This document shows, piece by piece, positions 11,394-35,087 of a stretch of DNA of 64,000 bases (the first letter of the stretch is position 1; each line of letters begins with the position of its first letter). The notes beneath the pieces were generated by a model. The model ran no database searches. It saw only the letters and a program-made list of their open reading frames with translations, and was not told the origin of the DNA. A program made the position numbers and the translations under genes. Origin of the DNA: an uncultured delta proteobacterium. GTDB taxonomy: Bacteria > Desulfobacterota > RBG-13-43-22. The stretch lies in assembly GCA_963790475.1 (NCBI GenBank), contig CAWBOS010000006.1, positions 448,001-512,000 of the forward strand, written 5' to 3'.

Positions 11394-11397
11394 GATC

Positions 11398-13873: not shown

Positions 13874-13978
13874 AACCTGTCGCCAGCGAGGAGATTGTCG
13901 TTGAAGCCCTGCATCGACGGTTGCCGGTCAGTGCGGGCGTCGAGGCGGCTCGCATTGCCGAAAGAGGAGAGAGGAGAG

Positions 13979-14482: not shown

Positions 14483-15901
14483 TTAATGAAGCATTCGGGC
14501 CGCAGTTATGGCCAGATCGTAAAAATAGGCCGGAAAAATGCCGCCGCCGATTATGATCATCATCATGATAACGGTCAGCAGTTTAACCGGCCAGGGCAAG
14601 ATAATCCCGGGCAGGTCTTCTTCAGCGGGAAGGAAATAGGCCGCCTTGATCACCAGGGCGTAATAATAAAGGGAGATGGCTACATTGACCATACCGATCA
14701 ATACCAGAAGAAAATAGCCCTTTTCCATGGCTGCCAGGAAAACCAGAAACTTGGCGCTGAAGCCGATGGTCGGGGGGAGTCCTCCGAGACTGAAAAAACC
14801 GAGCAGCAGGGCCATGGCCAGAAGGGGTGATCGACGGTGCAATCCCGCCAAATGGGCAATCTCCAGATCCTGGCCATGGGAGGCTACTTGGGTCAGCACC
14901 AAAAAACAGATGAAGTTCATAACCAGATAGGCCGCGGCATAAAAGATTGCTCCGGCATAACCGCTTTCGTTCAGGCTGAGGATGCCGACGAGTACGTATC
15001 CGGCATGAGCAATGGCGGAGTATCCCAATAATCTTTTCAGGTCCTTTTGAACCAGGGCGGTCAGGTTGCCCAGGGTCATGGAAGCGATGGCCAGGACAGC
15101 CAGGATGTGGACCAAAGGGGTACTGCCGCCGCCGCTCAAGGACAGCATGCGTAACAGGATGGCTATGGCCGCTACCTTGGTCGAGGTGGCGATAAAGGCC
15201 GTCACCTGGTTGGCCGCCCCCTGATAGACCCCCGGTGCCCAGAGCTGAAAAGGGAAGAGGGCCAGCTTGAAGAAAAAGCCGCTTAGAGTGAAAAGCAGGC
15301 CGATAAAGACCATAGGCGAGCCCATCTGGTCAGGCAGTATCTGCAAGAGTTGTGTTACATAGGTGGTCCCGACAGCCCCGTAGAGCAAGGCCAGACCGAA
15401 AAGCATCACCGCCGAGGTCGAGGCTCCGATCAGAAAATATTTGATGCCCGCCTCCAGATGAGGGCCGTCTCCCTTTCGCAAGGGAACCAGAAGGTAGAGG
15501 GAATATCCGGTCAGTTCCAGGGCCACATAAATGGTCAGTAACTCAACACTGCTCACCAGGATCATCATGGCCAGGGTGCAAAGGGTGAGAAGGAAATAAA
15601 ATTCCGGATGGCGTTTCTCCCCGATGCCCTTCAATTCCGAGCAGAGGCAGACGATGAGAAAGACCCCGATGGCCAGTAAGACCTTGAAAAGCTGAGAAAA
15701 GAAATCGACGCGCAAGACCTGTGAAAAAAAAGAACCTTGGCCATGTATTGCCCCCAGGCTGACCACAACACCTCCGGCCGTCAGCCAAAGGGCCAGGAGG
15801 TGGTCCCGCCCGGGGTTGGGCCGGGAGATCATGGCCACAATAAAGAACAGACCGGAGACGAGGAAAAAGTAACCTTCAGGGGCGAGGGGCATCCAGGTCA
15901 T
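14483..15901 (-). CDS. nuoN: Complex I subunit N
   Basis: EAGIKYF, FKLALFPFQLWAP, KRLLGYSAIAH; last gene of nuo run. Confidence 0.93.
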   Translation of the reverse strand: MTWMPLAPEGYFFLVSGLFFIVAMISRPNPGRDHLLALWLTAGGVVVSLGAIHGQGSFFSQVLRVDFFSQLFKVLLAIGVFLIVCLCSELKGIGEKRHPEFYFLLTLCTLAMMILVSSVELLTIYVALELTGYSLYLLVPLRKGDGPHLEAGIKYFLIGASTSAVMLFGLALLYGAVGTTYVTQLLQILPDQMGSPMVFIGLLFTLSGFFFKLALFPFQLWAPGVYQGAANQVTAFIATSTKVAAIAILLRMLSLSGGGSTPLVHILAVLAIASMTLGNLTALVQKDLKRLLGYSAIAHAGYVLVGILSLNESGYAGAIFYAAAYLVMNFICFLVLTQVASHGQDLEIAHLAGLHRRSPLLAMALLLGFFSLGGLPPTIGFSAKFLVFLAAMEKGYFLLVLIGMVNVAISLYYYALVIKAAYFLPAEEDLPGIILPWPVKLLTVIMMMIIIGGGIFPAYFYDLAITAARMLH

Positions 15902-17391
15902 CGCGGTAAGGTCTCCATAAAGGGCATCACTGCGGTTTGAATCAAATCGAGCATCAACGAAGGAAACAATCCGAATAAGAGCAGGGCCATCACCAGAATC
16001 ATTCGGGGAAGTCCCAAGCCGAAGGAGACATCGGGCAAATGAGCCAGGCGCTCATTACGAGGTCCATAAAAGGTCTTTTGGACCACCCGCAGCATAAAGA
16101 GGGCGCTGACCACCAGAGAGGAGATGGCCAGGATACCTCGAACCGGATAGGTTTTCAAGGAGGAAACAAAGATGGTGAATTCGGCCCAGAAATTGGCGAA
16201 TCCGGGTACCCCCATGCCGGCCAGGGCCCCGAGGATAAAATAGGCCGAGGCCTTGGGCATGATCCGGCTCATCCCCCCCAGTTCCGGAATAAGCTTGGTT
16301 CCGGTGGTGTCATGAAAATATCCGACTGATGAAAAAAGAAGGGCCGTCATGATCCCATGGGCGAACATCTGGAAGACGGCGCCGTTCAGGCCGCCCACGG
16401 TGACTGTGGATAACCCCAGCCCGACGATCCCCATGTGGGAGACACTGGAGTAGGCCACCACGTACTTGAGATCGGTCTGGGTCAGACCGACAAAAACACC
16501 ATAAACGATCCCGATGGTGGCCAGAACGGCCATCGGTTCGGCCCAATATTGCCACCCCAGGGGGCAGAGCAGGATAGCCACCCGCAAAATGCCGAAGGCC
16601 CCTAACTTCATGAGCACACCGGCGTGGATCATACTCACTGATGTGGGAGCGGCTACATGGCCCGTGGGTGACCAGGTGTGGAAAGGCCAGACCCCGGCCA
16701 GGATGCCGAAGCCCAGATAAAGAAAGGGGAAGGCTAATTTTTGTTGAAAGGGGGTAAAGGTCCCGGAGTGCATCAGGCTGATCAGATCAAAGGTGTTCAT
16801 GCCCGATTTGACGAAAAGGTAGAGCAGGGCCGGAAGGATCAGACTGCTTCCGGCCAGGAGATAGAGGAACAGCTTCATGGCCCCGTATTCCTTGCGCGTG
16901 GTGCCCCAGATCAGAATCAGGGGATACATGGGAAAGAGGGAGACATCATACCAGACAAAAAGGAAAAAAAGGTCCAGACTCATGAAGAAGCCGAATACGC
17001 CCATGACCAGCAGAAAAGAGAGGGCAAAGAATTCTTTTACCCTTTCCTCAAGTTTCCACATGGTCAGCACCCCGGTAAAGTGGACAATGCCGGTCAGGAG
17101 CAAGAGCGGCAAATTGAACCCATCGGCCCCGTTGAAGTAATGAATGCCCAGGGATTTCACCCAGAGGACTTTCTCCACAAACTGAAGGCCCCCTTGAGAG
17201 CGGTCATAGGTGATGAATAAGAGGATGGTCAGGAGGAAAGGGATCCCGGAAAAGACCGCACTGATCCAACGGATCAGTGCTTTTCGTTGAGCGGGAATAA
17301 ACAGGATGACCAACAGACCCACCAGGCAACTGAGAAGGATGGCCGTGAGAAAAGGAAATCCGGCATAGGCTATGGGTATATTGAGTTTCAT
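15898..17391 (-). CDS. nuoM: Complex I subunit M
   Basis: PFHTWSP, AGVLMKLGAFG, DLKYVVAYSSVSHMG. Confidence 0.93.
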   Translation of the reverse strand: MKLNIPIAYAGFPFLTAILLSCLVGLLVILFIPAQRKALIRWISAVFSGIPFLLTILLFITYDRSQGGLQFVEKVLWVKSLGIHYFNGADGFNLPLLLLTGIVHFTGVLTMWKLEERVKEFFALSFLLVMGVFGFFMSLDLFFLFVWYDVSLFPMYPLILIWGTTRKEYGAMKLFLYLLAGSSLILPALLYLFVKSGMNTFDLISLMHSGTFTPFQQKLAFPFLYLGFGILAGVWPFHTWSPTGHVAAPTSVSMIHAGVLMKLGAFGILRVAILLCPLGWQYWAEPMAVLATIGIVYGVFVGLTQTDLKYVVAYSSVSHMGIVGLGLSTVTVGGLNGAVFQMFAHGIMTALLFSSVGYFHDTTGTKLIPELGGMSRIMPKASAYFILGALAGMGVPGFANFWAEFTIFVSSLKTYPVRGILAISSLVVSALFMLRVVQKTFYGPRNERLAHLPDVSFGLGLPRMILVMALLLFGLFPSLMLDLIQTAVMPFMETLPR

Positions 17392-17489
17392 CCCCGGGGA
17401 GCCCCCTTAAATTCTTTTTTTAATGAATTCATAATACATTCCCAGCCATCATCAACCTTGAACCTTGAACCTCGGATTTTCCCCTTCCC

Positions 17490-19355
17490 TCAGGCCAAGA
17501 AAAAATAAAGGCCCACCAAGGCCAGCACGGCGAAGGAGACAAAAATATTGTAACGGAGTCTGCCGGATTGCAGATAGGAGACCACCCGTCCACTGTTCAC
17601 CGTGAATTTACAGAACTCATCAATACCGCCGTCGATCACCTGCTGATCATTTCGGGTAAAAGGATAGGCCAAGGTCCGATAGATCACCCGGTCCAAAAAT
17701 ATTCTGTAAAAATGGTCCAGGTACCATCGCTCGGCCAGAAAATTTCGAATCCTGTCATTCCGTTCGGCAAATCCAACCTGGCTGGCCTTCTTGCGGCCGA
17801 ATTCAACCCAGGTCAGGGCCAGGGCAAGAAGGACCAAGGCCTGAGAAAGATAAGTCAGCCAATGCCCCTCTCCGGCCGGACCAGGCCGGCCCAAAAAATT
17901 TCTTAAAGACCCTTCAAAAAATCCCAGGACCACGATAATGGCCGCCAGAATAACCAGCGGCCAGGCCATGGCCCAATAAACCGGGCCACCGGGCCTTTCC
18001 CCAGAAGAGTTTTCCCGCTCTATTTTTTTAGGAAAGAGAATGATAAAGATCGCTCTGAAGGTGTAATAGGGAGTCAGGAAGACACCGGCCAGGCCGATGA
18101 TCAGCCAGAGGGGATTGTCCAGACGGGCCAGGGACTCCAGGATGGCCTCTTTGCTGAAGAAACCAGCCAGAGGGGGAATGCCGGAAAGGCTGGCCCCGGC
18201 CAGGATAAGACAGACCGTGGGGATTTTTAGACTGCGGCCGGGAAGTCGCCCGATTTCGAACATGTCGTTGGTCTCATAGTAGTGTATCCAGGCTCCGGAG
18301 CAAAGGAAGAGCAAGGACTTAAATCCGGCATGGGTGGTGAGATGAAAGATCCCGGCAAAGTATCCCCCGGCGGCCAGGGCCATAATCATATACCCTAATT
18401 GACTGATGGTCGAATAAGCCCAGACCTTTTTGATGTCCCGGTCCACCATGGCCATGGTGGAGGCCATCAGCATGGTGATGGTGCCGATGGCCAGAAAAAC
18501 AGTCATGGCCTCCGGGGAATGACTGAAAAAGGGAAAAAGCCGGGCGAAAAGGTAAACGCCGGCGGCCACCATAGTAGCTGAATGGAGCAATGCGCTGACC
18601 GGCGTTGGTCCTTCCATGGCATCGGGCAGCCAGGTCAGAAGCGGGAATTGGGCGCTTTTGCCCACAATTCCGCCAAAAATTAAAAGGGCCGAAAGGGTGA
18701 TCAGCCCTGAAGACATTCGTGCCGAGGCCTCAGGGCCGTTCATTTCCAGGATGCTGAGATTGCCCAGATGAAGCAGCACCAGGAGAAGCCCGAGAAAAAA
18801 AGCACCGTCCCCCAGGCGGGTCATGACAAAGGCCTTTTTCCCCGCCTCGGTGGCACTGAACTTCTCGTACCAGAAGCCGATCAAAAGATAGGAGGTAAGG
18901 CCGACCAGTTCCCAGAAGAAGTAGAGCTGGACCAAAGAGGCGGAAAGAGTCAGGGACATCATAGCCCCGGCAAAAAGAGATTGAAAGCCAAAGTAGGTGG
19001 AAAATCTCGGATCCCCGGACATGTATCCCAGGGAATAGACCTGGACCAGTAAACTGATTCCGGCAACCACCAAGAGCATGAGCAGGCTGGTAGGGTCCAG
19101 CAAGAAACCAAATGAAATGGAAGTGCTCCCGCTGACCAGCCACCGGGTGGTATAAAGGAGGGGATGATCCGGATGGTTCAGAAGCAAAAAAAGGGCATTG
19201 ATCAGGGAAATAGAAACCGCCCCGACAGATAATCCCCCAGAGATCCTGGGATAGGGCCGGGTCAGGATCATGATGACCGCAAAGGCCAGGAAAGGGAGCA
19301 TGACCGCCGTTGCTGCCGCCAGGAGGGTCGGGTCTTGAAAGAGGTTTTGGATCAT
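17490..19355 (-). CDS. nuoL: Complex I subunit L
   Basis: WELVG, GKSAQFPL..WLPDAMEGPTPVSALLHSATMV, AYSTISQLG; start taken at ATG 19355. Confidence 0.95.
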   Translation of the reverse strand: MIQNLFQDPTLLAAATAVMLPFLAFAVIMILTRPYPRISGGLSVGAVSISLINALFLLLNHPDHPLLYTTRWLVSGSTSISFGFLLDPTSLLMLLVVAGISLLVQVYSLGYMSGDPRFSTYFGFQSLFAGAMMSLTLSASLVQLYFFWELVGLTSYLLIGFWYEKFSATEAGKKAFVMTRLGDGAFFLGLLLVLLHLGNLSILEMNGPEASARMSSGLITLSALLIFGGIVGKSAQFPLLTWLPDAMEGPTPVSALLHSATMVAAGVYLFARLFPFFSHSPEAMTVFLAIGTITMLMASTMAMVDRDIKKVWAYSTISQLGYMIMALAAGGYFAGIFHLTTHAGFKSLLFLCSGAWIHYYETNDMFEIGRLPGRSLKIPTVCLILAGASLSGIPPLAGFFSKEAILESLARLDNPLWLIIGLAGVFLTPYYTFRAIFIILFPKKIERENSSGERPGGPVYWAMAWPLVILAAIIVVLGFFEGSLRNFLGRPGPAGEGHWLTYLSQALVLLALALTWVEFGRKKASQVGFAERNDRIRNFLAERWYLDHFYRIFLDRVIYRTLAYPFTRNDQQVIDGGIDEFCKFTVNSGRVVSYLQSGRLRYNIFVSFAVLALVGLYFFLA

Positions 19356-19427
19356 TATGGTCTCTATAATTTCATCAAGAAGGTTTTGATTTTGAATCTT
19401 TATTTTTTCGAAATAAGTGGTCAGAAA

Positions 19428-19496
19428 CATCACTCCGGCGAAAGCCGGAGTTCAGGATTAATCGATTTACTGGATTCCGGCTTCCGCCGGAATGAC
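19428..19496. repeat. REP-like palindromic doublet between nuoK and nuoL
   Basis: CTCCGGCGAAAGCCGGAGTTCAG ... CTGGATTCCGGCTTCCGCCGGAATGAC, two inverted hairpin units. Confidence 0.75.
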
Positions 19497-19572
19497 TCAA
19501 AACGGATTTCTTGACTGTTAGCGATTCCGGCATTCTTAGTTGTCCCCCTTATTCTATTGATCAACTACCCGG

Positions 19573-19878
19573 CTACCATTTCAAGATATTAAAATGGTCC
19601 GGATCAACGGACCCGCTGCGCAGGTAGGCCCCGACGATCAGGGCCAACCCCACCGAGACCTCGGTGGCGGCCACACCAATGATGAACAGGACAAAGGCCT
19701 GTCCTTCCAACTGCTGCCAGCGCAAGGCCCCGGCCACAAAGAGGATGGCGGCCGCGTTCATCATGATCTCTATGCCGATCAAGGTCATGATCAGATTACG
19801 CCGGGTCAGTAAACAAACGAGACCCAGTAAAAAAATGATCGCCGCCAGGATGACCACATGATTATAAGGAACGATCAT
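19573..19878 (-). CDS. nuoK: Complex I subunit K
   Basis: RRNLI..IEIMMNA, AATEVSVGLAL. Confidence 0.95.
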   Translation of the reverse strand: MIVPYNHVVILAAIIFLLGLVCLLTRRNLIMTLIGIEIMMNAAAILFVAGALRWQQLEGQAFVLFIIGVAATEVSVGLALIVGAYLRSGSVDPDHFNILKW

Positions 19879-20393
19879 AGACTCTCCTCACCCGGACTTT
19901 TTCCCTTAACCCTTCCCAGTTGAATAACGGCCACCAGACCGATGAGCAGAAGAAGGGAGATCATCTCCACGGAAAGCCAGTACCTCTCGAAGACGAAGCG
20001 TCCCAGGGCCTGGGGCGTGGCCACAGCCATCTTTAGAGGGATACGGCTCCGGGGATCCAGAAAAACCAGCAGACAGGCCAAGACAAAATAGATCAGGCCC
20101 AAAAAACCAGCCGGGGCCCAGTTCCGCCACTTCAATCGGGCCTCGATGATCACCTCAGCCTTCAGCATCATAATCACAAAGAGGAACAGGACCATGATCG
20201 CGCCGGCATAGATAATTACCTCCAAAGCCGCTAAAAAGGGGGCTCCGAGGAGATAAAAAAGCATGGCGCTGCCCAGGAAGGAAAGGATCAGATAAACCAC
20301 GGCATGAACGGGATGGGGACGGGTGATGGCCAGGGCCGTGGCCGTCAGGATAACCGCCGAGACGAGATAAAAGCAAAGGGCGTAAAAGGTCAT
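19875..20393 (-). CDS. nuoJ: Complex I subunit J
   Basis: HPVHAV, IYAGAIMVLFLFVIMML. Confidence 0.95.
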   Translation of the reverse strand: MTFYALCFYLVSAVILTATALAITRPHPVHAVVYLILSFLGSAMLFYLLGAPFLAALEVIIYAGAIMVLFLFVIMMLKAEVIIEARLKWRNWAPAGFLGLIYFVLACLLVFLDPRSRIPLKMAVATPQALGRFVFERYWLSVEMISLLLLIGLVAVIQLGRVKGKSPGEESL

Positions 20394-20968
20394 GGCCAGT
20401 TACTCCTTAAATCCACCGGTTTTTTTTCATTGATGTGCCCGCCCTTGCCCCCGGCAATAGTAATTCCGGCATGGCGATAAAAATTATAGTCATGGTTTTT
20501 TCCACCGTGATCCACCAAAAGGTCTTCCTTTTCCGCAACCAGCGTTAGGACATCATAATTGCTGAATTCGAAATAAGGGGTCAGTTGAATGGCCAGAGTA
20601 GGACACGCCTCCTCGCACAAGCCTCAGTAAATACAACGGGCGAAGTTGATCCGGAACCAGGGGGCCCAGCGCCGCCCGTCTTCCCGTTCGGCTGACTGCA
20701 TGGAGATGCAACTGACCGGGCAGACGGCCGAACATAGATAACAGGCCACACACCGTTCCTCACCGTCCGGATCCCGGGTGAGGATGATCCTGGCCCGGGT
20801 ACGAGCGGGTAGAGGCCTTTTATACTCCGGGTACTGCTCGGTGACCGGTTTTCGAAAGAGATGTTTAAAAACGGTCCAAAAACCCTTAGCCAATCCCGGT
20901 AGGGCATCAGACCATATTTTTCTCAACTGGGAAGGGCTACTTCTTTTTTTTGAATGGTTATTGATCAT
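20390..20968 (-). CDS. nuoI: Complex I subunit I with in-frame TGA (20624-20626) at a 4Fe-4S Cys position
   Basis: [30 protein letters not shown]; both halves in one frame; ATGA overlaps with nuoH and nuoJ. Confidence 0.9.
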
Positions 20969-21963
20969 CTCATACTCCCCATCCATAACATGATCCCGCC
21001 GGTTACCATAATATTGAGCAGCGCAATAGGGATGAGCACCTTCCAACCCAGGTCCATGAGTTGATCGTAACGCAGCCTGGGCAAGGTGGTCCGCATCCAG
21101 ATCATAAAAAAAACAACGGCCAGGACCTTGATCGAAAACCAGACCAGCGGCGGGAGTCCGGGGCCGTGCCAACCTCCCAAAAAGAAAACGGTCGTCAACC
21201 CCCCCAGGACGATCAGGGTCACATATTCTCCTAAAAAATAAAGACCGAAGCGCATCCCGCTGTATTCCAGATGATAGCCGGCTACCAGTTCACTTTCGGC
21301 TTCGGCCAGATCAAAGGGAATCCTTTTGCTTTCCGCCACGGCGCTGATAAAAAAAATGATCATGGCTATGGGCTGCACCAAGATGAATGGATAGGATGCT
21401 TGGGCAGCGACGATCTCCACCAGGCTGAACGACCGGGTCATCATGACCACCGGGACCAGGGAAAGCCCCAAGGAAAGTTCATAGCTGATCATCTGGGCGG
21501 CACCGCGGATACCCCCCAAAAAGCTGAATTTGGAATTGGAGGCCCAGCCCCCCAAGGCTATCCCGTAGACACTGATCGACGAGAGGGCCAGCACATAAAG
21601 GAGTCCGATGTTAAGATCGGTGACGACCATAGGAATGGGAAGACCCTTAAAGGTCATCCCTTTTCCGAAGGGGATGACCGCAAAAATGAGCAAGGCCGTG
21701 GAGGCCACCACCGCCGGGGCCAAAAGAAAGACGATGCGGTCCGCTCCTTGAGGAACCGTGTCTTCCTTGGTCAGCATTTTAATGATATCGGCCAGGGGTT
21801 GAAGAAGCCCGAACGGACCAGCCCGGTTAGGACCGTAGCGGACCTGTAGCCGTCCCAAGAGCTTCCGTTCGGCCAGAGTCAAATAGGCGGCCGACAAGAG
21901 TAAGACTACCAACACCAGACCCAGCTTGATCAAAAGGATAATGAATCCTAATATCCAGATCAT
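20965..21963 (-). CDS. nuoH: Complex I subunit H
   Basis: [40 protein letters not shown]. Confidence 0.96.
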
Positions 21964-24470: not shown

Positions 24471-24529
24471 AGTACCAGTTAGTTCACTAGATTTTGGGTT
24501 CCTTCAGCCCCTGCGACGGGCAGGAGTCT

Positions 24530-25813: not shown

Positions 25814-26307
25814 CAGCGGACCTCTTCCTGTGGAGGTTTCCAGTCTCTTAATCGTTGAAGGATTTCATCTATCGATTCGGGATCCAGAGGGCCGTACAAT
25901 TTTCCATTAATCAACATGGCCGGGGCATGGTCGCAATAACCGATACAGCCCGCCGGCAGAAGGGTAAATAAGCCGTCTTCGGTCGTTCCTCCCAAGGCAA
26001 TACCGAGGCATTGACTGAGATAACTTATAACCGATTGGTGGTTGAACATCCAGCACATGAGGCCGTCACAAACATGGATCACATACTTCCCAACCGGCCG
26101 ACGGTAGATAAAATCGTAAAAAGTGGCCAGCTCCTCCAGTTCCAGAGAGGTCATCCCCAGCAAGAGGGCTCCTTCCTGAAGGGCCTCGTCACTCAAGTAC
26201 CCGTGGTGTTTTTGCAGGGCGAACATGACCTCCACGGCCAGTTCACGGGGGTGATCGGATCCCTCTATTTTGTTTCTCAAAATATTCAATGTTTCTTCAG
26301 GTAACAT
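25813..26307 (-). CDS. nuoE: Complex I subunit E
   Basis: ATFY, CDGLMC..CIGYC 2Fe-2S motif. Confidence 0.95.
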   Translation of the reverse strand: MLPEETLNILRNKIEGSDHPRELAVEVMFALQKHHGYLSDEALQEGALLLGMTSLELEELATFYDFIYRRPVGKYVIHVCDGLMCWMFNHQSVISYLSQCLGIALGGTTEDGLFTLLPAGCIGYCDHAPAMLINGKLYGPLDPESIDEILQRLRDWKPPQEEVR

Positions 26308-26405
26308 TGCTTTATTCGCAGTATGGCATAATGCTCAATATTGAAAGCTCCAAACTCAAAGCTCAAAGAAAAAATCCAATTGGGAAATTCGTAAATCAAT
26401 AGCCC

Positions 26406-28862: not shown

Positions 28863-29259
28863 AATGATATATCCATTCCAGTCCCTGTTTCTTCCAGATA
28901 TATACCAGACCGGCCAGCAAAAGGATGATGAAAACAGAAATTTGAAGCCACCCGGTCCATCCCAGATCGGTAAAGGCCACGGCCCAGGCCAGGATGAAGG
29001 CGGCCTCGACATCGAAGATCAGAAAGAAAACCGCCACCAGATAAAAGGGGACGGGATAAGAAAACCCTGCCGGACCGGTGGGAATGATGCCGCATTCATA
29101 GGGCCTTTTTTTTTCGGTGCTGATCTTCTTTTCCCCGAGCCAGGAAGCCAGGAAAAGAAGAAGGGCTATCAAAATCAGTATCATCAGGCCATATAGAAAA
29201 AGGGCCGTCAGACCCGGTTCCCAAGGAGATAAGATAATCATTGGGGGTATAGGTTGCAT
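28834..29259 (-). CDS. nuoA: Complex I subunit A
   Basis: [23 protein letters not shown]. Confidence 0.95.
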
Positions 29260-29335
29260 GAGAGATTATCCATGGTCAAAGGGTTCGATTCCGCCTTTGG
29301 CGAGATTGAATCCGCTTTCATTTCTTATCGGGACC

Positions 29336-30211
29336 TTACCGGGCAGAGGGGATTATCATGGTCTTCCAGTCTTGGGAAAATTTGTCCATTCCCTTGGTGG
29401 TCAGATCATGGGCCAGGTCATATTCCTGCCGGTTCTTGCTGAGATTCATCTCCCGGTAAGGAATGTCTTTCAGTTCTCCTTTGTTGTAGGTATAGGTTGG
29501 GTCCGGCAGGGGCAGGCCCTGTTCTCCCCAGTGCTTTAAGATATCGAAAGGGGCGGTGATGATGTCCGATCCCAGTTTGAGGGCATATAAAAAATGGTCC
29601 ATAGTCCGGACACTGGCGGTCAGCACTTCCACATGACCGTCCCCTTTTTGATACATGCGAAGGATATTGGAGATCAAATCCATGCCGTTCTCTCCCCGAT
29701 CATCCAGACGACCGATAAAAGGGGATACAAAGACATCCCCTTTTTTGGCCCCCCGGGTGGCGGCATAAACGGCCGCGGCCTGTTCCTGTGAAAAACACAA
29801 GGTCAGGTTGACCCGAAGGCCCATTCCGACCGCCGCTTCAGCGGCCTTCAACCCTTCCGGGGAGGTGGGGAATTTTATATGGGCATTAGGGATCCAGGAA
29901 AACATATCCTGTCCCTGTTTTAACATTGATTCGGCCGGGGTTTGAAGATCGGCATAGACCTCGACGGATACGGACCCCCGGGGAATCAGGCTGGAGATCT
30001 TCTGGACCACCTGCCGGTAAAACCCAAAGATTTCCTCCTGATTGAATTTCTCTCCTTTTTCCAGACGTCGGCGGGCCTCGGGATTTTTGGAGATAAGGGT
30101 CGGGTTAGTGGTTTGACCATCAAGGAATCCCAAAGTGCGGAGGATTTTCCCGGTTTCCTCGGGATCTCCCCCGTCGAGAAAAATGCGGGTTTTAAGGTTT
30201 TCCGGTTTCAT
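29336..30211 (-). CDS. tal: Transaldolase (short family)
   Basis: IFLD, QTTNPTL, HIKFP, NLTLCFS, SPFIGRLDD, ASVR. Confidence 0.9.
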   Translation of the reverse strand: MKPENLKTRIFLDGGDPEETGKILRTLGFLDGQTTNPTLISKNPEARRRLEKGEKFNQEEIFGFYRQVVQKISSLIPRGSVSVEVYADLQTPAESMLKQGQDMFSWIPNAHIKFPTSPEGLKAAEAAVGMGLRVNLTLCFSQEQAAAVYAATRGAKKGDVFVSPFIGRLDDRGENGMDLISNILRMYQKGDGHVEVLTASVRTMDHFLYALKLGSDIITAPFDILKHWGEQGLPLPDPTYTYNKGELKDIPYREMNLSKNRQEYDLAHDLTTKGMDKFSQDWKTMIIPSAR

Positions 30212-32040
30212 AACAGCTCCTTCACTTTTTTGATGATCGCTTCTTTGAATATTTGCTCATAGGCCAGAAGTTCCGCCGGGGTCCCGCTCTTGGGCATGCT
30301 CCTGACGGCCAGGGAGTGAATGACTATCTCCTCTCCGTCAAAAGCGCTCCTGACCGCTTCTCCCAAACCGCCTTCGGCATGATGATCTTCCACGGTGATG
30401 ATGCACCTGGTCTCTTGGGCCGCCTCTTTCAGGGTGGCCGAGTCCAGCGGCTTGATGCTGTAAAGATCGATGATGCGCAGGAAAAGATCTTCTTTTTTTA
30501 GTTCCTCGTAGGCCTGGAGGGCCTCGAATAGGGTGATGCCGGCCGCCACGATGGTCACTTTATCCTGAGGGCTTTTTTTCAGCACTTTTGATCCGCCAAT
30601 CGGGAACCGATCACTATTGGAATAAAGGATCGGTGTAGCCATGCGGGTGGTTCGAATATACACCAGGCCATAGTGGAGGGCCGCCTCCTCCACCAATCGT
30701 TCGGTGGATACCGCGTCGCTGGGATAGAGAACCACGCTGCCCAAAATGCTTCGGAACAGGGCGATATCTTCCAAACCCATTTGGGAAGGGCCGTCTTCGC
30801 CGATGGACACCCCGGCATGGGAGCCGCAAAATTTGATATTGGCGTTCGAATACTGGCTCATCCTGATCTGGTCGAAGGCCCGGGTAAAAAAGGCGGCAAA
30901 AGTGGAAAGGAAGGGGATTTCCCCTCTTGTCGAAAGACCCAGGGCAGTGCCCACCATATTTTGTTCAGCGATGTACATTTCAAAGAACCTATCCGGATAG
31001 TCTTTCTTAAATATTTCGGCATAGGTAGAATTACTGACTTCAGCGTCAAGAACAACCATATTGGGATAGCGAGGGAAAATCCGCTTCAAGGCTTGCCCGT
31101 AAGCCTTCCGGGTAGCTATGGGGGTATCAGTCGGATAGAAGGGCTCCTCGATTTTCCGGGCAATACTTCGGGCCGGTTTCAGGTCTTCCGGTTTGGCTAT
31201 CTCCCCCACGATAGTCTTGTCCACCTCGCCCAGTTCCTTCAGGGCTTGTTCCAGTTGCTCTTTAGACAACGTTTTTCCGTGCCAGCCGTTTTTATCTTCA
31301 ATAAAAGAAACCCCTTTCCCTTTGATGGTCCTGGCAATGATCATCACCGGTTTTTCTTTGGCATCCAGGGCCTGTTTATAAGCGGAAAGAATCGGTTCGA
31401 GATCATGGCCATCGATCAGGATGGTCTCCCAGCCGAAGGAAGCAATGCGGTCTCGATAGGCTGTCAGATCATGGCCATACATGGTTTCTCCCCGTTGACC
31501 GAGACGATTGACATCGATGATGCCGATAAGATGGTTCAATTTATAGTAGGCCCCGATCTCCATGGCCTCCCATAAGGAACCTTCGGCCATCTCACTATCG
31601 CCCATGAGGACATAAGTGTGGTAAGGGAGCTTATCCAGATATTGTCCGTTAAGGGCTATTCCCAGTCCGATGGACAGCCCTTGTCCGAGAGAACCGGTGG
31701 CCGCTTCGGCGTATCTAAAACTAGAGGTGGGGTGGCCTTCCAGGGGGCTGCCGAATTTTCTTAAGGACATCAATTCCTCCTCCGTGACCTGCCCGGCTGC
31801 TGCCCAAAGGGAGTAAAAGAGGGGAGAGGCGTGGCCTTTGGAGAAAATGAGACGATCGTTATTAGGATGGTCCGGTAACCGGACGTCATAATGAAAGATG
31901 CCGCTGAACAGTAAACCGGTCATCAAATCAGTGGCCGATAATGAGGAACTGGGATGGCCCGATCCGGCCTCCGTAGTAGAAACCAGAGAATAATAGCGAA
32001 TCAACTTGGCTATTTTTTGCAATTTTTCCATTGGATTCAT
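30208..32040 (-). CDS. tkt: Transketolase (short, animal-TKT-like)
   Basis: GHPSSS, SKGH, GSLGQG, GDSE..EG, IAEQNM, GEDGPSQM. Confidence 0.93.
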   Translation of the reverse strand: MNPMEKLQKIAKLIRYYSLVSTTEAGSGHPSSSLSATDLMTGLLFSGIFHYDVRLPDHPNNDRLIFSKGHASPLFYSLWAAAGQVTEEELMSLRKFGSPLEGHPTSSFRYAEAATGSLGQGLSIGLGIALNGQYLDKLPYHTYVLMGDSEMAEGSLWEAMEIGAYYKLNHLIGIIDVNRLGQRGETMYGHDLTAYRDRIASFGWETILIDGHDLEPILSAYKQALDAKEKPVMIIARTIKGKGVSFIEDKNGWHGKTLSKEQLEQALKELGEVDKTIVGEIAKPEDLKPARSIARKIEEPFYPTDTPIATRKAYGQALKRIFPRYPNMVVLDAEVSNSTYAEIFKKDYPDRFFEMYIAEQNMVGTALGLSTRGEIPFLSTFAAFFTRAFDQIRMSQYSNANIKFCGSHAGVSIGEDGPSQMGLEDIALFRSILGSVVLYPSDAVSTERLVEEAALHYGLVYIRTTRMATPILYSNSDRFPIGGSKVLKKSPQDKVTIVAAGITLFEALQAYEELKKEDLFLRIIDLYSIKPLDSATLKEAAQETRCIITVEDHHAEGGLGEAVRSAFDGEEIVIHSLAVRSMPKSGTPAELLAYEQIFKEAIIKKVKELL

Positions 32041-32092
32041 TTTCAAACCCCCCTTAGGTCAAAAATACTTTCCTCAGTCCCTGGGATCCGGA

Positions 32093-33658
32093 TCAGGCCT
32101 CTATTGATTTCTTTTCTTCGGAGTTCTTACAACGATGGATGGCCTCCTGGTACTGATGAATATTGGGCATTACCCAACTACGACTGTCTTGGGCAATTAA
32201 ATATTCCGCCGATTCCGGACCCCAGCTGCCGGACGGGTAATTGGGAAAGTTGGCTGGGACCACTGATTCCCAGGCCTCAAGAATAGGGGCGATAACGCGC
32301 CAGGCCGCCTCGGCCTGATCCCCCCGCATAAAAAGGGTGGCATTCCCCAACATCACATCCAGCAGCAGGGTCTCATAAGCCTCGGGAGAAGGAACTTTAA
32401 AGGCTTCTTGATAATAAAACTGCATATCCACGGGACTCAAACGCATGGTCTCTCCCGGATGTTTAGCCTGAAAGCGAAGCAGGATGCCTTCCAGGGGATG
32501 GATGGAAATAAGGAGGCGGTTCGGCGTCCAATCCAAAACCGTAGAGGGAGGAAAGATTTGATGCGGGACAGTTCGAAATTGGATATTGACTTCTGAAACT
32601 TTTGCGGGCAGACGTTTTCCGGTTCGCAGATAAAAAGGGACATCCTGCCAACGCCAGTTGTCCACAAAAAGCTTAACGGCAGCGTAAGTTTCGATCGAAG
32701 AGTCGGGAGAGACGTTTTTTTCACTCCGATATCCCCGGACCTTTTTCCCTTCGATCCAACCAGTGTCATACTGGCCGCGGACGGCAAATTTATGGATCTC
32801 ATCGAGAGGGATAGGACGTACGGCATGGAGGACATCCACTTTTTTATTGCGAATTTCTTCGTCTTTAAAAGAGATCATCGGCTCCATGGCGATCAGGCAG
32901 AGGACCTGGATAAGATGATTCTGAATCATATCCCTCAACGCCCCGGCCTTATCATAATAATGGCCGCGATCCCCGATGCCGTCCTGTTCGGATACGGTAA
33001 TCTGCACATGATCGATGTAACGCCGATTCCAGATAGGCTCAAACAGGGCATTGGCAAAACGGAAAGCCAGGATATTCTGTACGGTCTCTTTGCCCAAGTA
33101 GTGGTCGATCCGGTAAATCTGGGATTCGAGAAAGGTCTTGGTCAGATTTTTATTTAAAGATCTGGCCGAGGCCAGATCACGGCCGAAAGGTTTTTCGATA
33201 ACGATACGGGTTCGTTCCCGTTCAAAGGATAAGCGGGCGTTACCCAACTGTTCTACAATTAATTCAATAGACTGTGGTGGAATAGCCAGGTAGAAAATCC
33301 GGGTGGCCGGGGTGTCCCATTCTTTATCCAGGGTTTTGAGTTGCTTGGTCAGTCGGGAATAGATCTTTGGATCACTAAAATCGCAGATTTGAAAACTTAA
33401 ATGGGAGACGAAGGTTTTCCAATCCTTTTTATCCACTTCCTTGCGGCGAGAGAACTGCTTTACCCCTTGATGCAGATTTTGGATTTGGGCCTCATTGCTC
33501 AGCGACCGATGACCCAGACCGATGATCCGGAAATTATCCGGAAGCCAGTCGTCCAGATAAAGATCATATAAAGCCGGAATCAATTTACGCCGGGCCAGAT
33601 CGCCGGCAATGCCGAAGATGACAAAAACAGTCGGTTTGGGATGATTATCAACCGTCAT
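32093..33658 (-). CDS. zwf: Glucose-6-phosphate dehydrogenase
   Basis: [42 protein letters not shown]; start taken at ATG 33658. Confidence 0.96.
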
Positions 33659-33668
33659 TCGGATGTCC

Positions 33669-35087
33669 TTAATCCCTTCTCCACCGGGTATGAAAGGTGC
33701 CCGGGATATCGGTTCGTTTATAGGTGTGGGCACCGAAATAATCCCGTTGGGCCTGGATGAGATTGGCCGGCAGCCAGGAACTGCGGAAACTGTCGAAATA
33801 AGCTAAAGAGGCCATAAGACCGGGTACGGGTATGGCCAGATCAACGGCGGCCTTAATCACCTCTCCCATATCATTCTGACAGGACTTCATCTTTTCGGCC
33901 AGTTCGGTAGCGGTCAACAGGTGGATGAGATTCGGTTCAATCCGGTAGGCGGCCTGGATTTTGTCCAGGAGGGCCGCCCGGATGATGCACCCTCCGCGCC
34001 AGATCCGGGCCACCTCATCCAGAGGCACCCCATAATGATAAATTCGGGAGGCCTTCTGGAGCAGGGCCAGACCCTGGCTGTAAGTCACCATCATTCCACC
34101 ATAAAGGGCCTGACCGACCTGGGCTATCCATCCTTGTTGCTCTCCTCGGAACAAGGCTCGAGAGTTTTCAAAAACCCGACTCATGGCCTGCCGCTCCTGC
34201 GCATAGCCGGAGAGGTCCCGCATCATCACGGCCAAGTCGATGGTCGGCACCGGTATCTGTAATTCCAAAGCATTGGTGGAAGTCCAGAGGCCGGTCCCTT
34301 TTTGCCCGGCCTGATCCTGGATCCAATCGATCAGACGGCCTTTGCCCATTTCGTCTTCTTGAAGAAAGATACGGGCGGTGATCTCAATCAAATAAGACTT
34401 AAGTCCGGTCTGGTTCCATTGTTCAAAAATCCGGGACAACTCATCATCGTTCAGCCCCAGTCCCTGTTTAAGAAGCTGATAGGTTTCGGCAATCAATTCC
34501 ATTAAACCGTATTCAATCCCGTTGTGGACCATTTTGACGTAATGGCCGGCCGACCCTTGGCCCAGATAAGTCACGCAGGGTTCCCCCTCCACCTTGGCGG
34601 CGATAGTCTCAAGGATCGGACGCACCCGTTCATAGGCCTGGGGGGAACCGCCGGGCATCAGACTGGGGCCGTAACGGGCACCCGACCCGCCACCGGATAT
34701 ACCCAGACCCATATAAAGGATTCTTTTTTCGGACAAGGATTTTTCCCGGCGATCGGTGTCGCTGAATAAAGAATTACCGCCATCAATAATCAGGTCGTTG
34801 TCTTCAAGGAGGGGGAGAAGTTCCTGGATCATTTCGTCGACCGCTCGGCCGGCGGAGATCATCAGCAGAATAGCCCTGGGTCTGCGCAGCAGCCCAACGA
34901 ATTCGGACAGGTTGGTGCCCGGCCTGATGGGTCGTGAACCGGCCTCTTTTTCCATGAATTCCCTGGTTTTTTCCTGAGTCCGGTTATAAACCGCTACAGA
35001 AAAGCCGTGGTCGGCCATATTCAATACCAGATTTCGGCCCATTTCCCCCAGACCGATTAAACCGATCTCAACCCTCTGGTCAGCCAT
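33669..35087 (-). CDS. gnd: NADP-dependent 6-phosphogluconate dehydrogenase (long form)
   Basis: [39 protein letters not shown]; start ATG 35087. Confidence 0.96.

What the first reader, a model, noticed from the sequence alone, without database searches (positions are those of the whole stretch)
14483..35087. Candidate NADPH-oxidising complex I in one operon-like run with the oxidative pentose phosphate pathway
Seen: gnd-zwf-tkt-tal-nuoA..N are co-directional over ~20.6 kb. Gaps between gnd and nuoA are 76 bp or less, and I see no clear terminator between tal and nuoA. NuoF reads YICGEAKG (25283-25306) where NADH-type NuoF has YICGEETA, and the usual RxKPPFP adenine-pocket loop is replaced by PNLEGHL. 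Gnd carries the NRT fingerprint of NADP-dependent enzymes. Established: the second Glu of CGEET (E. coli NuoF Glu183) contacts the adenosine ribose and discriminates against NADPH, and replacing it raises NADPH activity. Inference: Glu to Ala plus an adjacent Lys fits a 2'-phosphate pocket, so this locus may respire pentose-phosphate NADPH directly through a proton-pumping NADPH:quinone oxidoreductase.
Basis: partly seen in the sequence, partly recalled or inferred. Interest (0 to 1): 0.88.

Follow-up and report, generated by a model that had tools for sequence, protein, structure and literature searches.

The report
Sugar-pathway operon with altered complex I
A sulfate-reducing bacterium carries a complete respiratory complex I fused in one gene run to the sugar-oxidising pentose phosphate genes, and its electron-input subunit has a rebuilt nucleotide pocket that may let it burn NADPH directly, which no natural complex I is known to do.

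Summary
On the minus strand, gnd-zwf-tkt-tal-nuoA-nuoBCD(fused)-nuoE..N run without a break from 35087 to 14483. NuoF reads YICGEAKG and PNLEGHL where E. coli NuoF reads YICGEETA and RSKPPFP.

For it:
- The rebuilt pocket defines one clade of NuoF (22 tree rows). Pentose phosphate genes lie beside nuoA in 15 of the 18 rows with enough flank, co-directional or divergent.
- Every adjacent Gnd seen is the NADP type.
- This is the only nuoEFG-bearing complex I and the only zwf and gnd in the genome. No PntB was found.

Against it:
- Loss of the second Glu alone is widespread. 51 further tree rows lack it, and 0 of the 29 with adequate flank have pentose phosphate neighbours.
- Two Nitrospirota MAGs fuse gnd-tkt-tal-zwf-pgl to a nuo operon with canonical NuoF. 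Their Gnd belongs to the NAD-named family.
- Zwf here has His at the NADP-discriminating position.
- No kinetics, structure or RNA data could be obtained.

Best reading: an NAD(P)H-accepting complex I that serves a respiratory pentose phosphate/phosphoketolase island.

Found in passing: nuoI carries an in-frame TGA at an Fe-S cysteine. Comparative evidence points to selenocysteine.

The parts
33669..35087 (-). gnd, long-form 6-phosphogluconate dehydrogenase with VYNRT
   Evidence: Pfam 6PGD plus NAD_binding_2. NCBIfam NADP-dependent equivalogs are passed: 633.7 bits (cut-off 413) and 617.6 bits (cut-off 426.7). Single copy in the genome.
32093..33658 (-). zwf, glucose-6-phosphate dehydrogenase, with His at the E. 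coli R50 position (GLGHRS)
   Evidence: Pfam G6PD_N and G6PD_C. TIGR00871 scores 619 bits against a cut-off of 400.6. Alignment to 9emm_A. Single copy.
30208..32040 (-). tkt, transketolase
   Evidence: Pfam Transketolase_N, Transket_pyr and Transketolase_C.
29336..30211 (-). tal, transaldolase; its start overlaps the tkt stop
   Evidence: Pfam TAL_FSA; coordinates.
28834..29259 (-). nuoA
   Evidence: Pfam Oxidored_q4.
26406..28862 (-). nuoBCD fusion; the likely TTG start at 28862 overlaps the end of nuoA
   Evidence: Pfam Oxidored_q6, Complex1_30kDa and Complex1_49kDa in one ORF. NF009808 'subunit B/C/D' scores 1388.7 bits against a cut-off of 1156. Start codons.
25813..26307 (-). nuoE
   Evidence: Pfam 2Fe-2S_thioredx.
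24530..25813 (-). nuoF, 427 aa, variant nucleotide pocket
   Evidence: Pfam Complex1_51K, SLBB and NADH_4Fe-4S. Best solved relative is E. coli NuoF, E 2.7e-115. It falls below all three NCBIfam NuoF cut-offs: 457.5 against 558.65, 413.3 against 749, and 346.5 against 389.
25283..25306 (-). YICGEAKG: A175 replaces the second Glu and K176 replaces Thr
   Evidence: Alignment to E. coli NuoF. CGE[A/T]KG is present in the NuoF of all 8 related genomes of the order that carry it.
25229..25249 (-). PNLEGHL loop replacing (R)xKPPFP: E192 at the Lys position, H194, and L195 at the Phe position
   Evidence: alignment. PNIEGHL, or PNIENRL in one genome, in the relatives.
21960..24470 (-). nuoG, 836 aa
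   Evidence: Pfam Fer2_4, NADH-G_4Fe-4S_3, Fer4_Nqo3 and Molybdopterin.
20965..21963 (-). nuoH
   Evidence: ORF. A 50% identical second copy lies on contig C10.
20390..20968 (-). nuoI with an in-frame TGA (20626-20624) at the first Cys of the second CxxCxxCxxxCP motif
   Evidence: NF004536 NuoI scores 269.2 bits against a cut-off of 212 when read through.
20572..20623 (-). Candidate SECIS region. It holds the 15-mer GAGGAGGCGTGTCCT at 20614-20600.
   Evidence: The 15-mer is present in 9 of 10 TGA-type nuoI genes and in 1 of 120 Cys-type genes. Hairpins are predicted but are not significant and show no covariation.
14483..20393 (-). nuoJ (20393-19875), nuoK (19878-19573), nuoL (19433-17490), nuoM (17391-15898), nuoN (15901-14483)
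   Evidence: ORFs. Orthologues at 69-85% identity in related genomes.
35192..35219 (-). Best promoter-like site (TTATCA-16-TATAAT, 10 of 12), about 105 nt upstream of gnd
   Evidence: The number of sites in the region does not exceed shuffles (4 against 3.9), so this is a suggestion only.
7498..14438 (+). Convergent sugar-phosphate cluster: pgi 7498-9148, pgm 9224-10146, ack 10164-11393, xfp (phosphoketolase) 11398-13873, rpiB 13979-14438. Each is broken by one or more 1-nt frameshifts in this assembly.
   Evidence: Pfam on the pieces; frames. Single-base 'left out' differences at 10094/5, 13507/8 and 14099 in contigs of other public runs.
4208..5005 (+). pgl, 6-phosphogluconolactonase
   Evidence: Pfam Glucosamine_iso, E 7.9e-73. 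Single copy.

Best explanation
The locus encodes a complete, probably functional complex I with 14 core subunits in 12 genes, because NuoB, C and D are fused. It is co-inherited, and probably co-transcribed, with zwf, tkt, tal and, in this genome, an NADP-type gnd.

The adenosine pocket of its flavoprotein NuoF has been rebuilt:
- the carboxylate that H-bonds the adenosine ribose 2'-OH is gone (Glu to Ala)
- the KPPFP loop is replaced
- new basic residues (Lys176, His194) are conserved

I infer that the enzyme accepts NADPH, most likely alongside NADH, as an NAD(P)H:menaquinone oxidoreductase.

With pgl, pgi, pgm, phosphoketolase, acetate kinase and rpiB next door, the ~31 kb island would work as follows. 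Hexose phosphates are oxidised through the oxidative pentose phosphate branch. Xylulose-5-P is split to acetyl-P (giving ATP) and glyceraldehyde-3-P. The NAD(P)H is re-oxidised by proton-pumping respiration. Electrons then go to the organism's sulfite reductase, cytochrome bd or quinol-NO reductase branches.

Shown: gene content, order, the pocket substitutions, their clade-wide conservation, and the genomic linkage.
Inferred: nucleotide preference, co-transcription, proton pumping and the flux route.
For: 1. Pocket. The alignment to E. coli NuoF puts Ala175 at the second Glu of CGEET, Lys176 at Thr, Glu192 at the loop Lys (+17), His194 at the second Pro (+19) and Leu195 at Phe (+20).

2. Experiment on a homologue. 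In R. capsulatus FdsB the equivalent Glu259 H-bonds the 2'-OH. E259G/R/K/Q gain NADP+ activity while E259D does not. K276A (+17) and L279R (+20) also gain it. The same paper cites the E. coli NuoF Glu-to-Gln/His result (PMC10671435, passages).

3. Conservation. CGE[A/T]KG plus PNIE(G/N)(H/R)L is present in the NuoF of all 8 related genomes of the order that carry it. The FMN and N3-cluster residues are invariant.

4. Clade and linkage. In a 102-row NuoF tree, the forms without a PPxP loop make one clade of 22 rows (SH-aLRT 98). In it, pentose phosphate genes lie in the locus in 15 rows, none were found in 3 rows with at least 5 kb upstream, and 4 rows lack flank. The arrangements differ. They are co-directional in family f1, L147 and L150. 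They are divergent in L146, L126, L127, L201, L139, L152 and L163.

5. Cofactor matching. All 9 N-terminally covered gnd hits beside variant NuoF (8 related loci plus the window) read YNRT or HNRT. The two full pentose phosphate-nuo operons with canonical NuoF (L200, L252) have short Gnd reading VFDAN and VFDTD. L200's Gnd passes the NCBIfam equivalog named NAD(+)-dependent, at 363.6 bits against a cut-off of 297.2.

6. Genome.
- zwf, gnd, tkt, tal, pgl and xfp are single copy, and all lie here.
- The second nuo cluster on C10 has nuoD directly followed by nuoH, with no nuoEFG.
- No PntB was found.
- dsrA, two cytochrome bd genes and qNOR are present.

7. Phyletic pattern in the order's 21 genomes.
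- This NuoF is in 9 genomes.
- The 73-78% identical Zwf is in 8 of those 9. The ninth keeps a remnant.
- That Zwf is in 0 of the other 12.
Against: 1. Loss of the second Glu is not specific. 51 further tree rows read CGE[V/G/A/N][T/S]A with a PPP(Y/F)P-type loop. In 0 of the 29 with at least 5 kb upstream was any pentose phosphate gene found.

2. The variant clade has one origin, so the linkage may go back to a single event. Kin are not independent.

3. Canonical NuoF (CGEETA plus KPPYA) also sits in a tightly packed gnd-tkt-tal-zwf-pgl-nuoA operon in two Nitrospirota MAGs. In L200, pgl and nuoA overlap by 8 nt. Four further Nitrospirota loci have a lone short gnd-like gene before nuoA. Three of these read AYNK(S/T), which does not look like an NAD signature.

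4. Zwf here has His at the discriminating Arg position. That residue goes with dual use in P. putida G6PDH-B (PMC8546961, passages), so part of the reducing power may be NADH.

5. gnd is not a constant member. The long NADP-type Gnd was found in 5 of the 9 genomes with this nuo.

6. Glu192 at the former Lys position could pair with Lys176. That would be a charge swap that keeps a salt bridge rather than a phosphate site (inference).

7. In the FdsB variants, Km for NADP+ stayed at 3-6 mM (Table 1). Loss of the Glu alone therefore gives poor NADP binding.

8. No kinetic, structural or transcript data were obtained.
Confidence: 0.5

Rival explanations
1. This is an ordinary NADH:quinone oxidoreductase. 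The NuoF changes are lineage drift in a phylum where the second Glu is generally dispensable. The pentose phosphate genes sit beside nuo only for co-regulation of sugar catabolism with respiration. Reducing equivalents reach it as NADH, through a dual-specificity Zwf or through soluble transhydrogenase-type enzymes.
For: - Loss of the Glu is common without pentose phosphate linkage (51 further tree rows; 0 of the 29 with adequate flank).
- Canonical NuoF is also fused to pentose phosphate genes in L200 and L252.
- Zwf has His at the R50 position.
- All catalytic residues of NuoF are otherwise conserved.
- The genome holds several other NuoF-like flavoproteins: 2 long forms on C12 and a split copy on C6.
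Against: - The whole KPPFP loop, not just the Glu, is replaced, and His at +19 is conserved across types A and B.
- Every Gnd seen beside this clade is the NADP type, whereas the canonical-NuoF operons carry the NAD-named type.
- No PntB was found.
- This is the only nuoEFG-bearing complex I in the genome.
Confidence: 0.3
2. The enzyme is a strictly NADPH-specific complex I. This is the reader's strong form: it has lost NADH use and respires only pentose phosphate NADPH.
For: Same as for the best explanation. In addition, the loop Lys and the aromatic residue are lost. In solved NADH complexes these line the adenine and ribose (recalled from Berrisford and Sazanov 2009, which is not held). The +17 and +20 positions are named as specificity residues in PMC10671435.
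Against: - A sulfate reducer with only this NuoEFG module would then lack a complex I route for NADH.
- Zwf looks dual.
- 4 of the 9 genomes with the operon lack the NADP-type gnd.
- The engineered Glu variants keep NAD activity.
Confidence: 0.15
3. The operon is decaying or non-functional. On this view the TGA in nuoI is a nonsense mutation and the neighbouring pgi, pgm, ack, xfp and rpiB genes are frameshifted pseudogenes.
For: There is an in-frame TGA in nuoI. At least 7 frameshifts lie in 7498-14438. RNAfold finds no significant hairpin after the TGA (z +1.26).
Against: - The same TGA column is found in 4 of 8 orthologues of the order, spread over three genera, and Cys in the other 4.
- It is also found in 9 genome records across three phyla, each with 77-78 open codons after it.
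- Synonymous changes exceed non-synonymous changes downstream in all 28 pairs.
- A 15-mer after the TGA is fixed in 9 of 10 TGA genes against 1 of 120 Cys genes.
- tRNA-Sec, selA, selB and a TGA-containing selD are present.
- There are no frameshifts in the 20.6 kb operon.
- Three of the neighbouring frameshift sites coincide with 1-nt differences in independent contigs.
Confidence: 0.03

Closest known systems
E. coli-type complex I (Nuo with fused NuoCD); NuoF as in PDB 7p64/7awt
   Same: It is the best solved relative of this NuoF (E 2.7e-115, 388.9 bits). The subunit set and order are the same. Fusion of the C and D subunits is shared. The FMN loop GGAGFPTG, DEMEPGT and the N3 cysteines are conserved.
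   Different: - B is fused as well (B/C/D).
- CGEETA is replaced by CGEAKG, and RSKPPFP by NLEGHL.
- NuoF falls below all three NCBIfam NuoF cut-offs.
- nuoI has TGA at a Cys ligand.
- The operon is preceded by pentose phosphate genes.
Engineered NADPH-using variants: E. coli NuoF Glu183 (Morina et al. 2011, not held, recalled and as cited in PMC10671435) and R. capsulatus FdsB E259/K276/L279 (PMC10671435)
   Same: The same three positions (0, +17, +20) are altered. Removal of the carboxylate is the change that experimentally admits NADP(H).
   Different: Here the changes are natural and fixed in a clade. They are accompanied by loss of both loop prolines and a new conserved His. No activity data exist for them.
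Pentose phosphate-nuo operons of Nitrospirota MAGs (L200, L252), found here
   Same: gnd-tkt-tal-zwf-pgl run straight into nuoA. Tkt and Tal are 71-73% identical to the window's.
   Different: - NuoF is canonical (CGEETA, KPPYA).
- NuoB is a separate gene in L200.
- Gnd is the short form with Asp after beta-2. L200's Gnd passes the NCBIfam equivalog named NAD(+)-dependent; L252's is 74% identical to it.
- pgl lies inside the operon.
Cyanobacterial/plastid NDH-1 and type II NAD(P)H dehydrogenases (recalled)
   Same: These are other routes proposed or known to link NADPH-rich sugar oxidation to the quinone pool.
   Different: NDH-1 lacks NuoEFG and takes electrons from ferredoxin. NDH-2 is a single non-pumping flavoprotein. 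The window has a full NuoEFG module.
Bfu-type (HydABC-like) bifurcating NuoEF homologues (PMC9304861, passages)
   Same: The flavoprotein fold is homologous. The genome holds several such long paralogues.
   Different: This NuoF is 427 aa and has only the 51K, SLBB and N3 domains. It carries no extra Fe-S domains and sits inside a 14-subunit membrane operon.

Membership tests
Respiratory complex I (Nuo/NDH-1) | All 14 core subunits encoded together | tested here: met
   A, B/C/D (fused), E, F, G, H, I, J, K, L, M and N are co-directional over 29259-14483.
Respiratory complex I (Nuo/NDH-1) | NuoF FMN-binding loop and the four Cys of cluster N3 | tested here: met
   GGAGFPTG, DEMEPGT and C345/C348/C351/C390 are aligned and invariant.
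Respiratory complex I (Nuo/NDH-1) | NuoF NADH-pocket signature CGEET ... RxKPPFP | tested here: not met
   CGEAKG and PNLEGHL are found instead.
Respiratory complex I (Nuo/NDH-1) | NuoF reaches a curated NCBIfam NuoF cut-off | tested here: not met
   457.5 against 558.65, 413.3 against 749, and 346.5 against 389 bits.
Respiratory complex I (Nuo/NDH-1) | Quinone reduction coupled to proton pumping | not testable with these tools
   This needs membranes or purified enzyme.
NADPH-accepting NuoF-type flavoprotein (reference: engineered E183/E259 variants) | No carboxylate at the ribose 2'-OH position | tested here: met
   Ala175 in the window; Ala or Thr in all 8 related genomes of the order that carry this NuoF.
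NADPH-accepting NuoF-type flavoprotein (reference: engineered E183/E259 variants) | Basic side chains positioned for the 2'-phosphate | tested here: inconclusive
   K176 and H194 are conserved and next in sequence to contact positions. No model could be made because structure prediction was off. Glu192 may neutralise K176.
NADPH-accepting NuoF-type flavoprotein (reference: engineered E183/E259 variants) | kcat/Km for NADPH comparable to or above NADH | not testable with these tools
   No enzyme data exist.
NADPH-accepting NuoF-type flavoprotein (reference: engineered E183/E259 variants) | Genomic link to NADP-type dehydrogenases | tested here: met
   15 of the 18 clade rows with adequate flank. 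All 9 N-terminally covered gnd hits beside variant NuoF read (Y/H)NRT. One counter-pattern exists in Nitrospirota.
Bacterial selenoprotein (NuoI) | In-frame UGA at a column where homologues have Cys, with a conserved open frame beyond it | tested here: met
   TGA in 4 of 8 orthologues of the order and in 9 genome records; Cys in 120 other nuoI genes; 77-78 open codons follow.
Bacterial selenoprotein (NuoI) | SECIS hairpin just downstream of the UGA | tested here: inconclusive
   The 15-mer is fixed in 9 of 10 TGA genes against 1 of 120 Cys genes. The predicted hairpins differ between methods. The z-score is +1.26, and 0 of 8 predicted pairs covary.
Bacterial selenoprotein (NuoI) | Sec machinery in the genome | tested here: met
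   tRNA-Sec; selB 390.6 bits; selA 629.5 bits; selD 394.1 bits with its own TGA.
Bfu-type bifurcating flavoprotein | Extra N- or C-terminal Fe-S domains on the NuoF homologue | tested here: not met
   427 aa with three Pfam domains only.

The most novel reading that the evidence does not exclude
A clade of Desulfobacterota carries a natural proton-pumping NADPH:menaquinone oxidoreductase. It is a complex I whose NuoF pocket was rebuilt (Ala/Thr at the Glu position, His at +19, no KPPFP loop) to prefer NADPH. It is inherited as one mobile island with the oxidative pentose phosphate and phosphoketolase genes. Sugar phosphates would then be respired without any transhydrogenase. In some members the enzyme also uses a selenocysteine as a ligand of a NuoI [4Fe-4S] cluster.
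Probability: 0.25. Interest if true: 0.85.

Novelty: new variant of a known kind. Interest (0 to 1): 0.72.

Why it matters
Complex I is textbook-strict for NADH. NADPH use has only been obtained by mutating the very glutamate that is missing here.

A natural NAD(P)H-accepting, proton-pumping complex I would change three things:
- how redox budgets of anaerobes are modelled
- how sulfate reducers could respire stored or scavenged sugars through the oxidative pentose phosphate and phosphoketolase route
- the template available for engineering NADPH-driven respiration

The survey gives a testable sequence signature: no Glu at position 0, no PPxP loop, His at +19. It also gives a natural control, the Nitrospirota operons that pair canonical NuoF with the NAD-named Gnd.

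The selenocysteine candidate in NuoI would be a selenoprotein family not listed in two recent reviews. It would also be a rare case of Sec as an Fe-S ligand in a core respiratory enzyme.

Tried and rejected
Transcripts. The look-up of sequencing runs listed no RNA holder (11 runs, all DNA, best share 0.47). Co-transcription across tal-nuoA could not be examined.

Independent reads. Read laying on 9900-21100 with 4 DNA runs did not cover the nuoI TGA site. Depth in bin 20372-20745 was 0 in three runs and 1.55 in one. The TGA in this genome therefore rests on the assembly plus the comparative evidence.

No model, fold search or co-fold with NADPH was made.
- Complex prediction was not used, because it scores only protein partners.

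Papers.
- Morina et al. 2011 and Berrisford and Sazanov 2009 are not held. What I say of them is recalled, or taken from citing passages in PMC10671435.
- Five searches for a natural NADPH-using complex I or a pentose phosphate-nuo linkage found nothing relevant in their listings: NuoF/NADPH/complex I/E183; energy-converting NADPH/Morina; NADPH/NuoF/pentose phosphate/Desulfobacterota; NuoEFG/NADPH/sulfate-reducing; nuoF/zwf/gnd/NADPH/gene cluster.
- Two searches covered a selenocysteine NuoI, plus term look-ups in two selenoproteome reviews. These reviews have 0 occurrences of 'Nuo' or 'complex I' and list only an NqrE-type 'subunit E'.
- Supplements are closed. The NuoF tree in the supplement of PMC4453560 and the supplementary selenoprotein tables could bear on both novelty claims.

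Rejected readings.
- nuoI as a pseudogene: see the rivals.
- Bfu-type bifurcating enzyme: no extra domains.
- The first SECIS fold and RNAalifold gave no significant or covarying structure, so I call the element a candidate only.

Not done.
- The metagenome scan, because the genome collection already gave 160 loci (80 each).
- The search for homologous proteins and the protein atlas were not used.

Dropped rows.
- tkt-like hits under 35% identity (L135 at 24%, L139 at 28%) were dropped before the tally.
- Three duplicate rows (L143, L186, L136) were dropped before the tree.
- L097/L012 and L098 NuoF are frameshifted in their assemblies and were left out of the tree.

Full report
**What is there**

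The window is contig C6:448001-512000 of a 6.34 Mb, 20-contig genome. Everything in the finding lies on the minus strand. Pfam names each product:
- gnd 35087-33669
- zwf 33658-32093
- tkt 32040-30208
- tal 30211-29336
- nuoA 29259-28834
- one ORF holding NuoB, NuoC and NuoD, 28862-26406
- nuoE, nuoF (25813-24530), nuoG, nuoH, nuoI, nuoJ, nuoK, nuoL, nuoM and nuoN, ending at 14483

NCBIfam's 'subunit B/C/D' model is passed (1388.7 bits against a cut-off of 1156). Genes overlap or are at most 76 nt apart. The consensus scan puts no terminator-like site in the tal-nuoA gap. It finds about as many sites as in shuffled sequence, so this is weak evidence. The best promoter-like match of the upstream region lies about 105 nt before gnd.

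**The NuoF pocket**

The closest solved protein is E. coli NuoF (E 2.7e-115). In that alignment CGEETA becomes CGEAKG and RSKPPFP becomes NLEGHL, with a one-residue deletion.

Counting from the second Glu as position 0:
- position 0 is Ala175
- +1 is Lys176
- +17 (the loop Lys) is Glu192
- +19 is His194
- +20 (the aromatic or Leu) is Leu195

The FMN loop, DEMEPGT and the four N3 cysteines are intact.

Passages of PMC10671435 cover the homologous FdsB:
- The Glu at position 0 H-bonds the adenosine 2'-OH.
- Changing it to Gly, Arg, Lys or Gln admits NADP+, while changing it to Asp does not.
- Changes at +17 and +20 also admit NADP+.
- The paper cites the E. coli NuoF Glu-to-Gln/His result of Morina et al. 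I could not read that paper.

NuoF scores below all three curated NuoF cut-offs of NCBIfam, which measures how far it has moved.

**How far the variant reaches**

- A scan with the protein alone found 63 loci. Only 2 were above 42% identity (74% and 80%, both 'uncultured delta proteobacterium' MAGs).
- The order holds 21 species genomes in one family. Orthologues (68-77% identity) are in 8 of the other 20. All 8 read CGE[A/T]KG and PNIE(G/N)(H/R)L.
- Among 1.84 billion representatives, the nearest clusters (59% and 58% identity) read CGEATA...PLKGVHM and CGEASA...PDKESHM. The canonical motif appears from 47% identity down.
- In 401 genomes of the phylum, 45 had a match at E <= 1e-115. Of the 25 new loci read, 23 lack the second Glu.
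- With 80 more loci from the genome collection, I sorted NuoF into four types:
  - A: xKG, no PPxP loop
  - B: no Glu, no PPxP loop, usually K..HM
  - C: no Glu, PPP(Y/F)P loop kept
  - D: canonical
- A maximum-likelihood tree of 102 distinct rows puts all 7 A rows and 15 of the 17 B rows in one clade (SH-aLRT 98). C and D lie outside it.

**Linkage to the pentose phosphate genes**

I searched each locus with the window's own proteins. I counted gnd, zwf, tkt, tal or pgl hits of at least 35% identity.

| Group | Pentose phosphate genes in locus | None found (>= 5 kb upstream of nuoA) | Too little flank |
|---|---|---|---|
| A+B clade, 22 rows | 15 | 3 | 4 |
| Type C, 51 distinct rows | 0 | 29 | 22 |
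| Type D, first survey (27 rows) | 2 | 6 | 19 |

The genes are co-directional in family f1, L147 and L150. They are divergent in L146, L126, L127, L201, L139, L152 and L163. The linkage has therefore survived rearrangement. Of the two type D cases, one has only split tkt-like genes.

'None' means not found in the fetched locus, not absent from the genome. Because the A+B clade has one origin, this is one historical association that has been kept, not many independent ones.

Within the order, the 73-78% identical Zwf occurs in 8 of the 9 genomes with this NuoF. The ninth keeps a 71-residue remnant. It occurs in none of the other 12. The long Gnd occurs in 5 of the 9 and in none of the 12. The block behaves as an accessory island. 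In the window it abuts low-GC DNA with IS21 genes.

**A natural control, and counter-evidence**

A second scan, seeded with the canonical NuoF of L200, gave 80 loci, all reading CGEE.

- Two Nitrospirota MAGs (L200, L252) have gnd-tkt-tal-zwf-pgl running into nuoA. In L200, pgl and nuoA overlap by 8 nt. Their Tkt and Tal are 71-73% identical to the window's. Their Gnd is the short form reading VFDAN or VFDTD. L200's Gnd passes the NCBIfam equivalog named NAD(+)-dependent.
- By contrast, all 9 N-terminally covered gnd hits beside variant NuoF (8 related loci plus the window) read (Y/H)NRT. The window's passes the NADP-named equivalogs.

This fits cofactor matching between the dehydrogenases and NuoF. 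It also shows that a pentose phosphate-nuo fusion does not need a variant NuoF.

Four more Nitrospirota loci have a lone short gnd-like gene before nuoA. Three of them read AYNK(S/T), which does not fit a simple NAD signature. That an Asp after beta-2 marks NAD preference is general knowledge, not a result of a call.

Zwf is ambiguous. Aligned to 9emm_A, it has His where that enzyme has the first Arg of GFARRD. I take that Arg to be the E. coli R50 position; this equivalence is recalled and comes from no call. Volke et al. treat any residue other than Arg there as loosened discrimination. They found dual use for the His-bearing P. putida G6PDH-B (PMC8546961, passages).

**Genome context**

- zwf, gnd, tkt, tal, pgl and phosphoketolase are single copy, and all lie in this locus.
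- The only other nuo cluster (C10) goes from nuoD straight to nuoH, so it lacks nuoEFG.
- No PntB was found.
- dsrA is present at 615 bits, with two cytochrome bd genes. A quinol-type NorB is in the window.
- Convergent with nuoN lie pgi, pgm, ack, xfp and rpiB, and pgl lies a little further on.

The island thus holds a full route from hexose phosphate through the oxidative branch and phosphoketolase to acetate. Complex I is the obvious sink for the reducing equivalents. That flux route is inference.

**Verdict on mechanism**

I put about 0.5 on an enzyme that takes NADPH as a physiological donor, probably together with NADH. I put 0.3 on plain NADH use, and 0.15 on strict NADPH specificity. 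The last figure overlaps the first in spirit but is scored as a separate, stronger claim. A few per cent go to decay.

The step from 'Glu removed' to 'NADPH accepted' rests on experiments in two homologues. The step to 'NADPH preferred' rests only on the loop change, the conserved His and Lys, and the neighbours. Glu192 may simply pair with Lys176, which would weaken the phosphate-pocket idea.

**Selenocysteine in NuoI (found in passing)**

nuoI has TGA at 20626-20624, exactly at the first Cys of the second CxxCxxCxxxCP motif: [15 protein letters not shown].

- The same column is TGA in 4 of the 8 orthologues of the order (three genera) and TGC in the other 4.
- A pattern scan of the genome collection found 9 more such genes. 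They include one each labelled Nitrospirae, Chloroflexota and Syntrophaceae. Each has 77-78 open codons after the TGA.
- Downstream, synonymous differences exceed non-synonymous ones in all 28 pairs.
- The 15 bases GAGGAGGCGTGTCCT, starting 9 nt after the TGA, are identical in 9 of 10 TGA genes. The Ala codon is GCG in 10 of 10 against 18 of 120.
- The genome has tRNA-Sec 8 kb beyond the window, plus selA, selB and a selD that itself contains TGA.
- Predicted hairpins are weak and show no covariation.

By the ferredoxin-fold rule, this residue ligates the cluster formed by the second motif. Its name, N6b, is recalled and not tested.

**Limits**

No RNA, no enzyme data and no model were obtained. 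The assemblies of several relatives are frameshift-ridden. All organisms are known only as MAGs. Supplementary files of the cited papers could not be seen.

Noticed in passing
window 20390-20968 (-), TGA at 20626-20624; L229, L231, L232, L330-L338: nuoI has an in-frame TGA at an Fe-S cysteine ligand. The same column is TGA in 4 of 8 orthologues of the order and in 9 genome records from three phyla. A 15-mer after it is fixed in 9 of 10 TGA genes against 1 of 120 Cys genes. The Sec machinery is present. This is a likely selenocysteine NuoI, not listed in two selenoproteome reviews.
   Followed up: yes
L200:764-7041 and L252 (Nitrospirota MAGs): gnd-tkt-tal-zwf-pgl-nuoA... form one tight operon with canonical NuoF. 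The short Gnd (VFDAN / VFDTD) belongs to the family NCBIfam names NAD-dependent. Four more Nitrospirota loci (L271, L275, L281, L282) have a lone short gnd-like gene just before nuoA.
   Followed up: partly
L128, L131, L134, L137, L138, L141-L145, L151-L197 (many): A large Desulfobacterota clade of complex I NuoF (51 distinct tree rows) lacks the second Glu of CGEET (Val, Gly, Ala or Asn instead). It keeps a PPP(Y/F)P loop. Its nucleotide preference is also unknown.
   Followed up: partly
window 7498-14438 (+): pgi, pgm, ack, xfp and rpiB are each broken by 1-nt frameshifts, at least 7 in 7 kb of GC-rich DNA. The 20.6 kb operon has none. Contigs of other public runs lack one base at 10094/5, 13507/8 and 14099, so these look like assembly indels.
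   Followed up: partly
L011:14899-20214 (G017); also G014, G020, G010: In several genomes of the same genus, nuoH and nuoI are separated. In G017 about 5.3 kb of opposite-strand genes lie between them: DinB-like, an EgtD-like histidine methyltransferase, and a molybdopterin oxidoreductase fused to a class-V aminotransferase. In the window the two genes are adjacent.
   Followed up: partly
window 35200-50000: Low-GC DNA (0.41-0.49) lies directly upstream of gnd. It holds a DUF5906 fragment, a MatE gene, a Rieske-FAD reductase (in a higher-GC patch) and IS21 istA/istB. The pentose phosphate-nuo block is present in only 9 of the 21 genomes of the order, so it looks like an accessory island.
   Followed up: no
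G000:C10:381300-392300: A second nuo cluster runs nuoB, C, D directly to nuoH..N without nuoEFG. It is followed by a short ORF resembling only the C-terminal 4Fe-4S part of NuoF.
   Followed up: no
L149, L155-L160, L164, L171, L182; L132, L187: Stand-alone nuoEFG clusters without nuoA nearby. In two loci nuoEFG is placed before nuoA-nuoBCD.
   Followed up: no
P0015, P0053, P0079, P0116, P0121; L217: Longer, hydrogenase/FDH-like NuoF homologues read CGEST...K(Y/H)(V/I)H. L217 reads CGESS...RKDSHA. These are other natural forms with a small residue at the Glu position and a His in the loop.
   Followed up: no
window 383-2671 (+); 51160-54577 (-): A quinol-type nitric oxide reductase (NorB with a cytochrome c-like domain), and an EtfB / ferredoxin-fused EtfA / FAD-dependent oxidoreductase cluster.
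   Followed up: no
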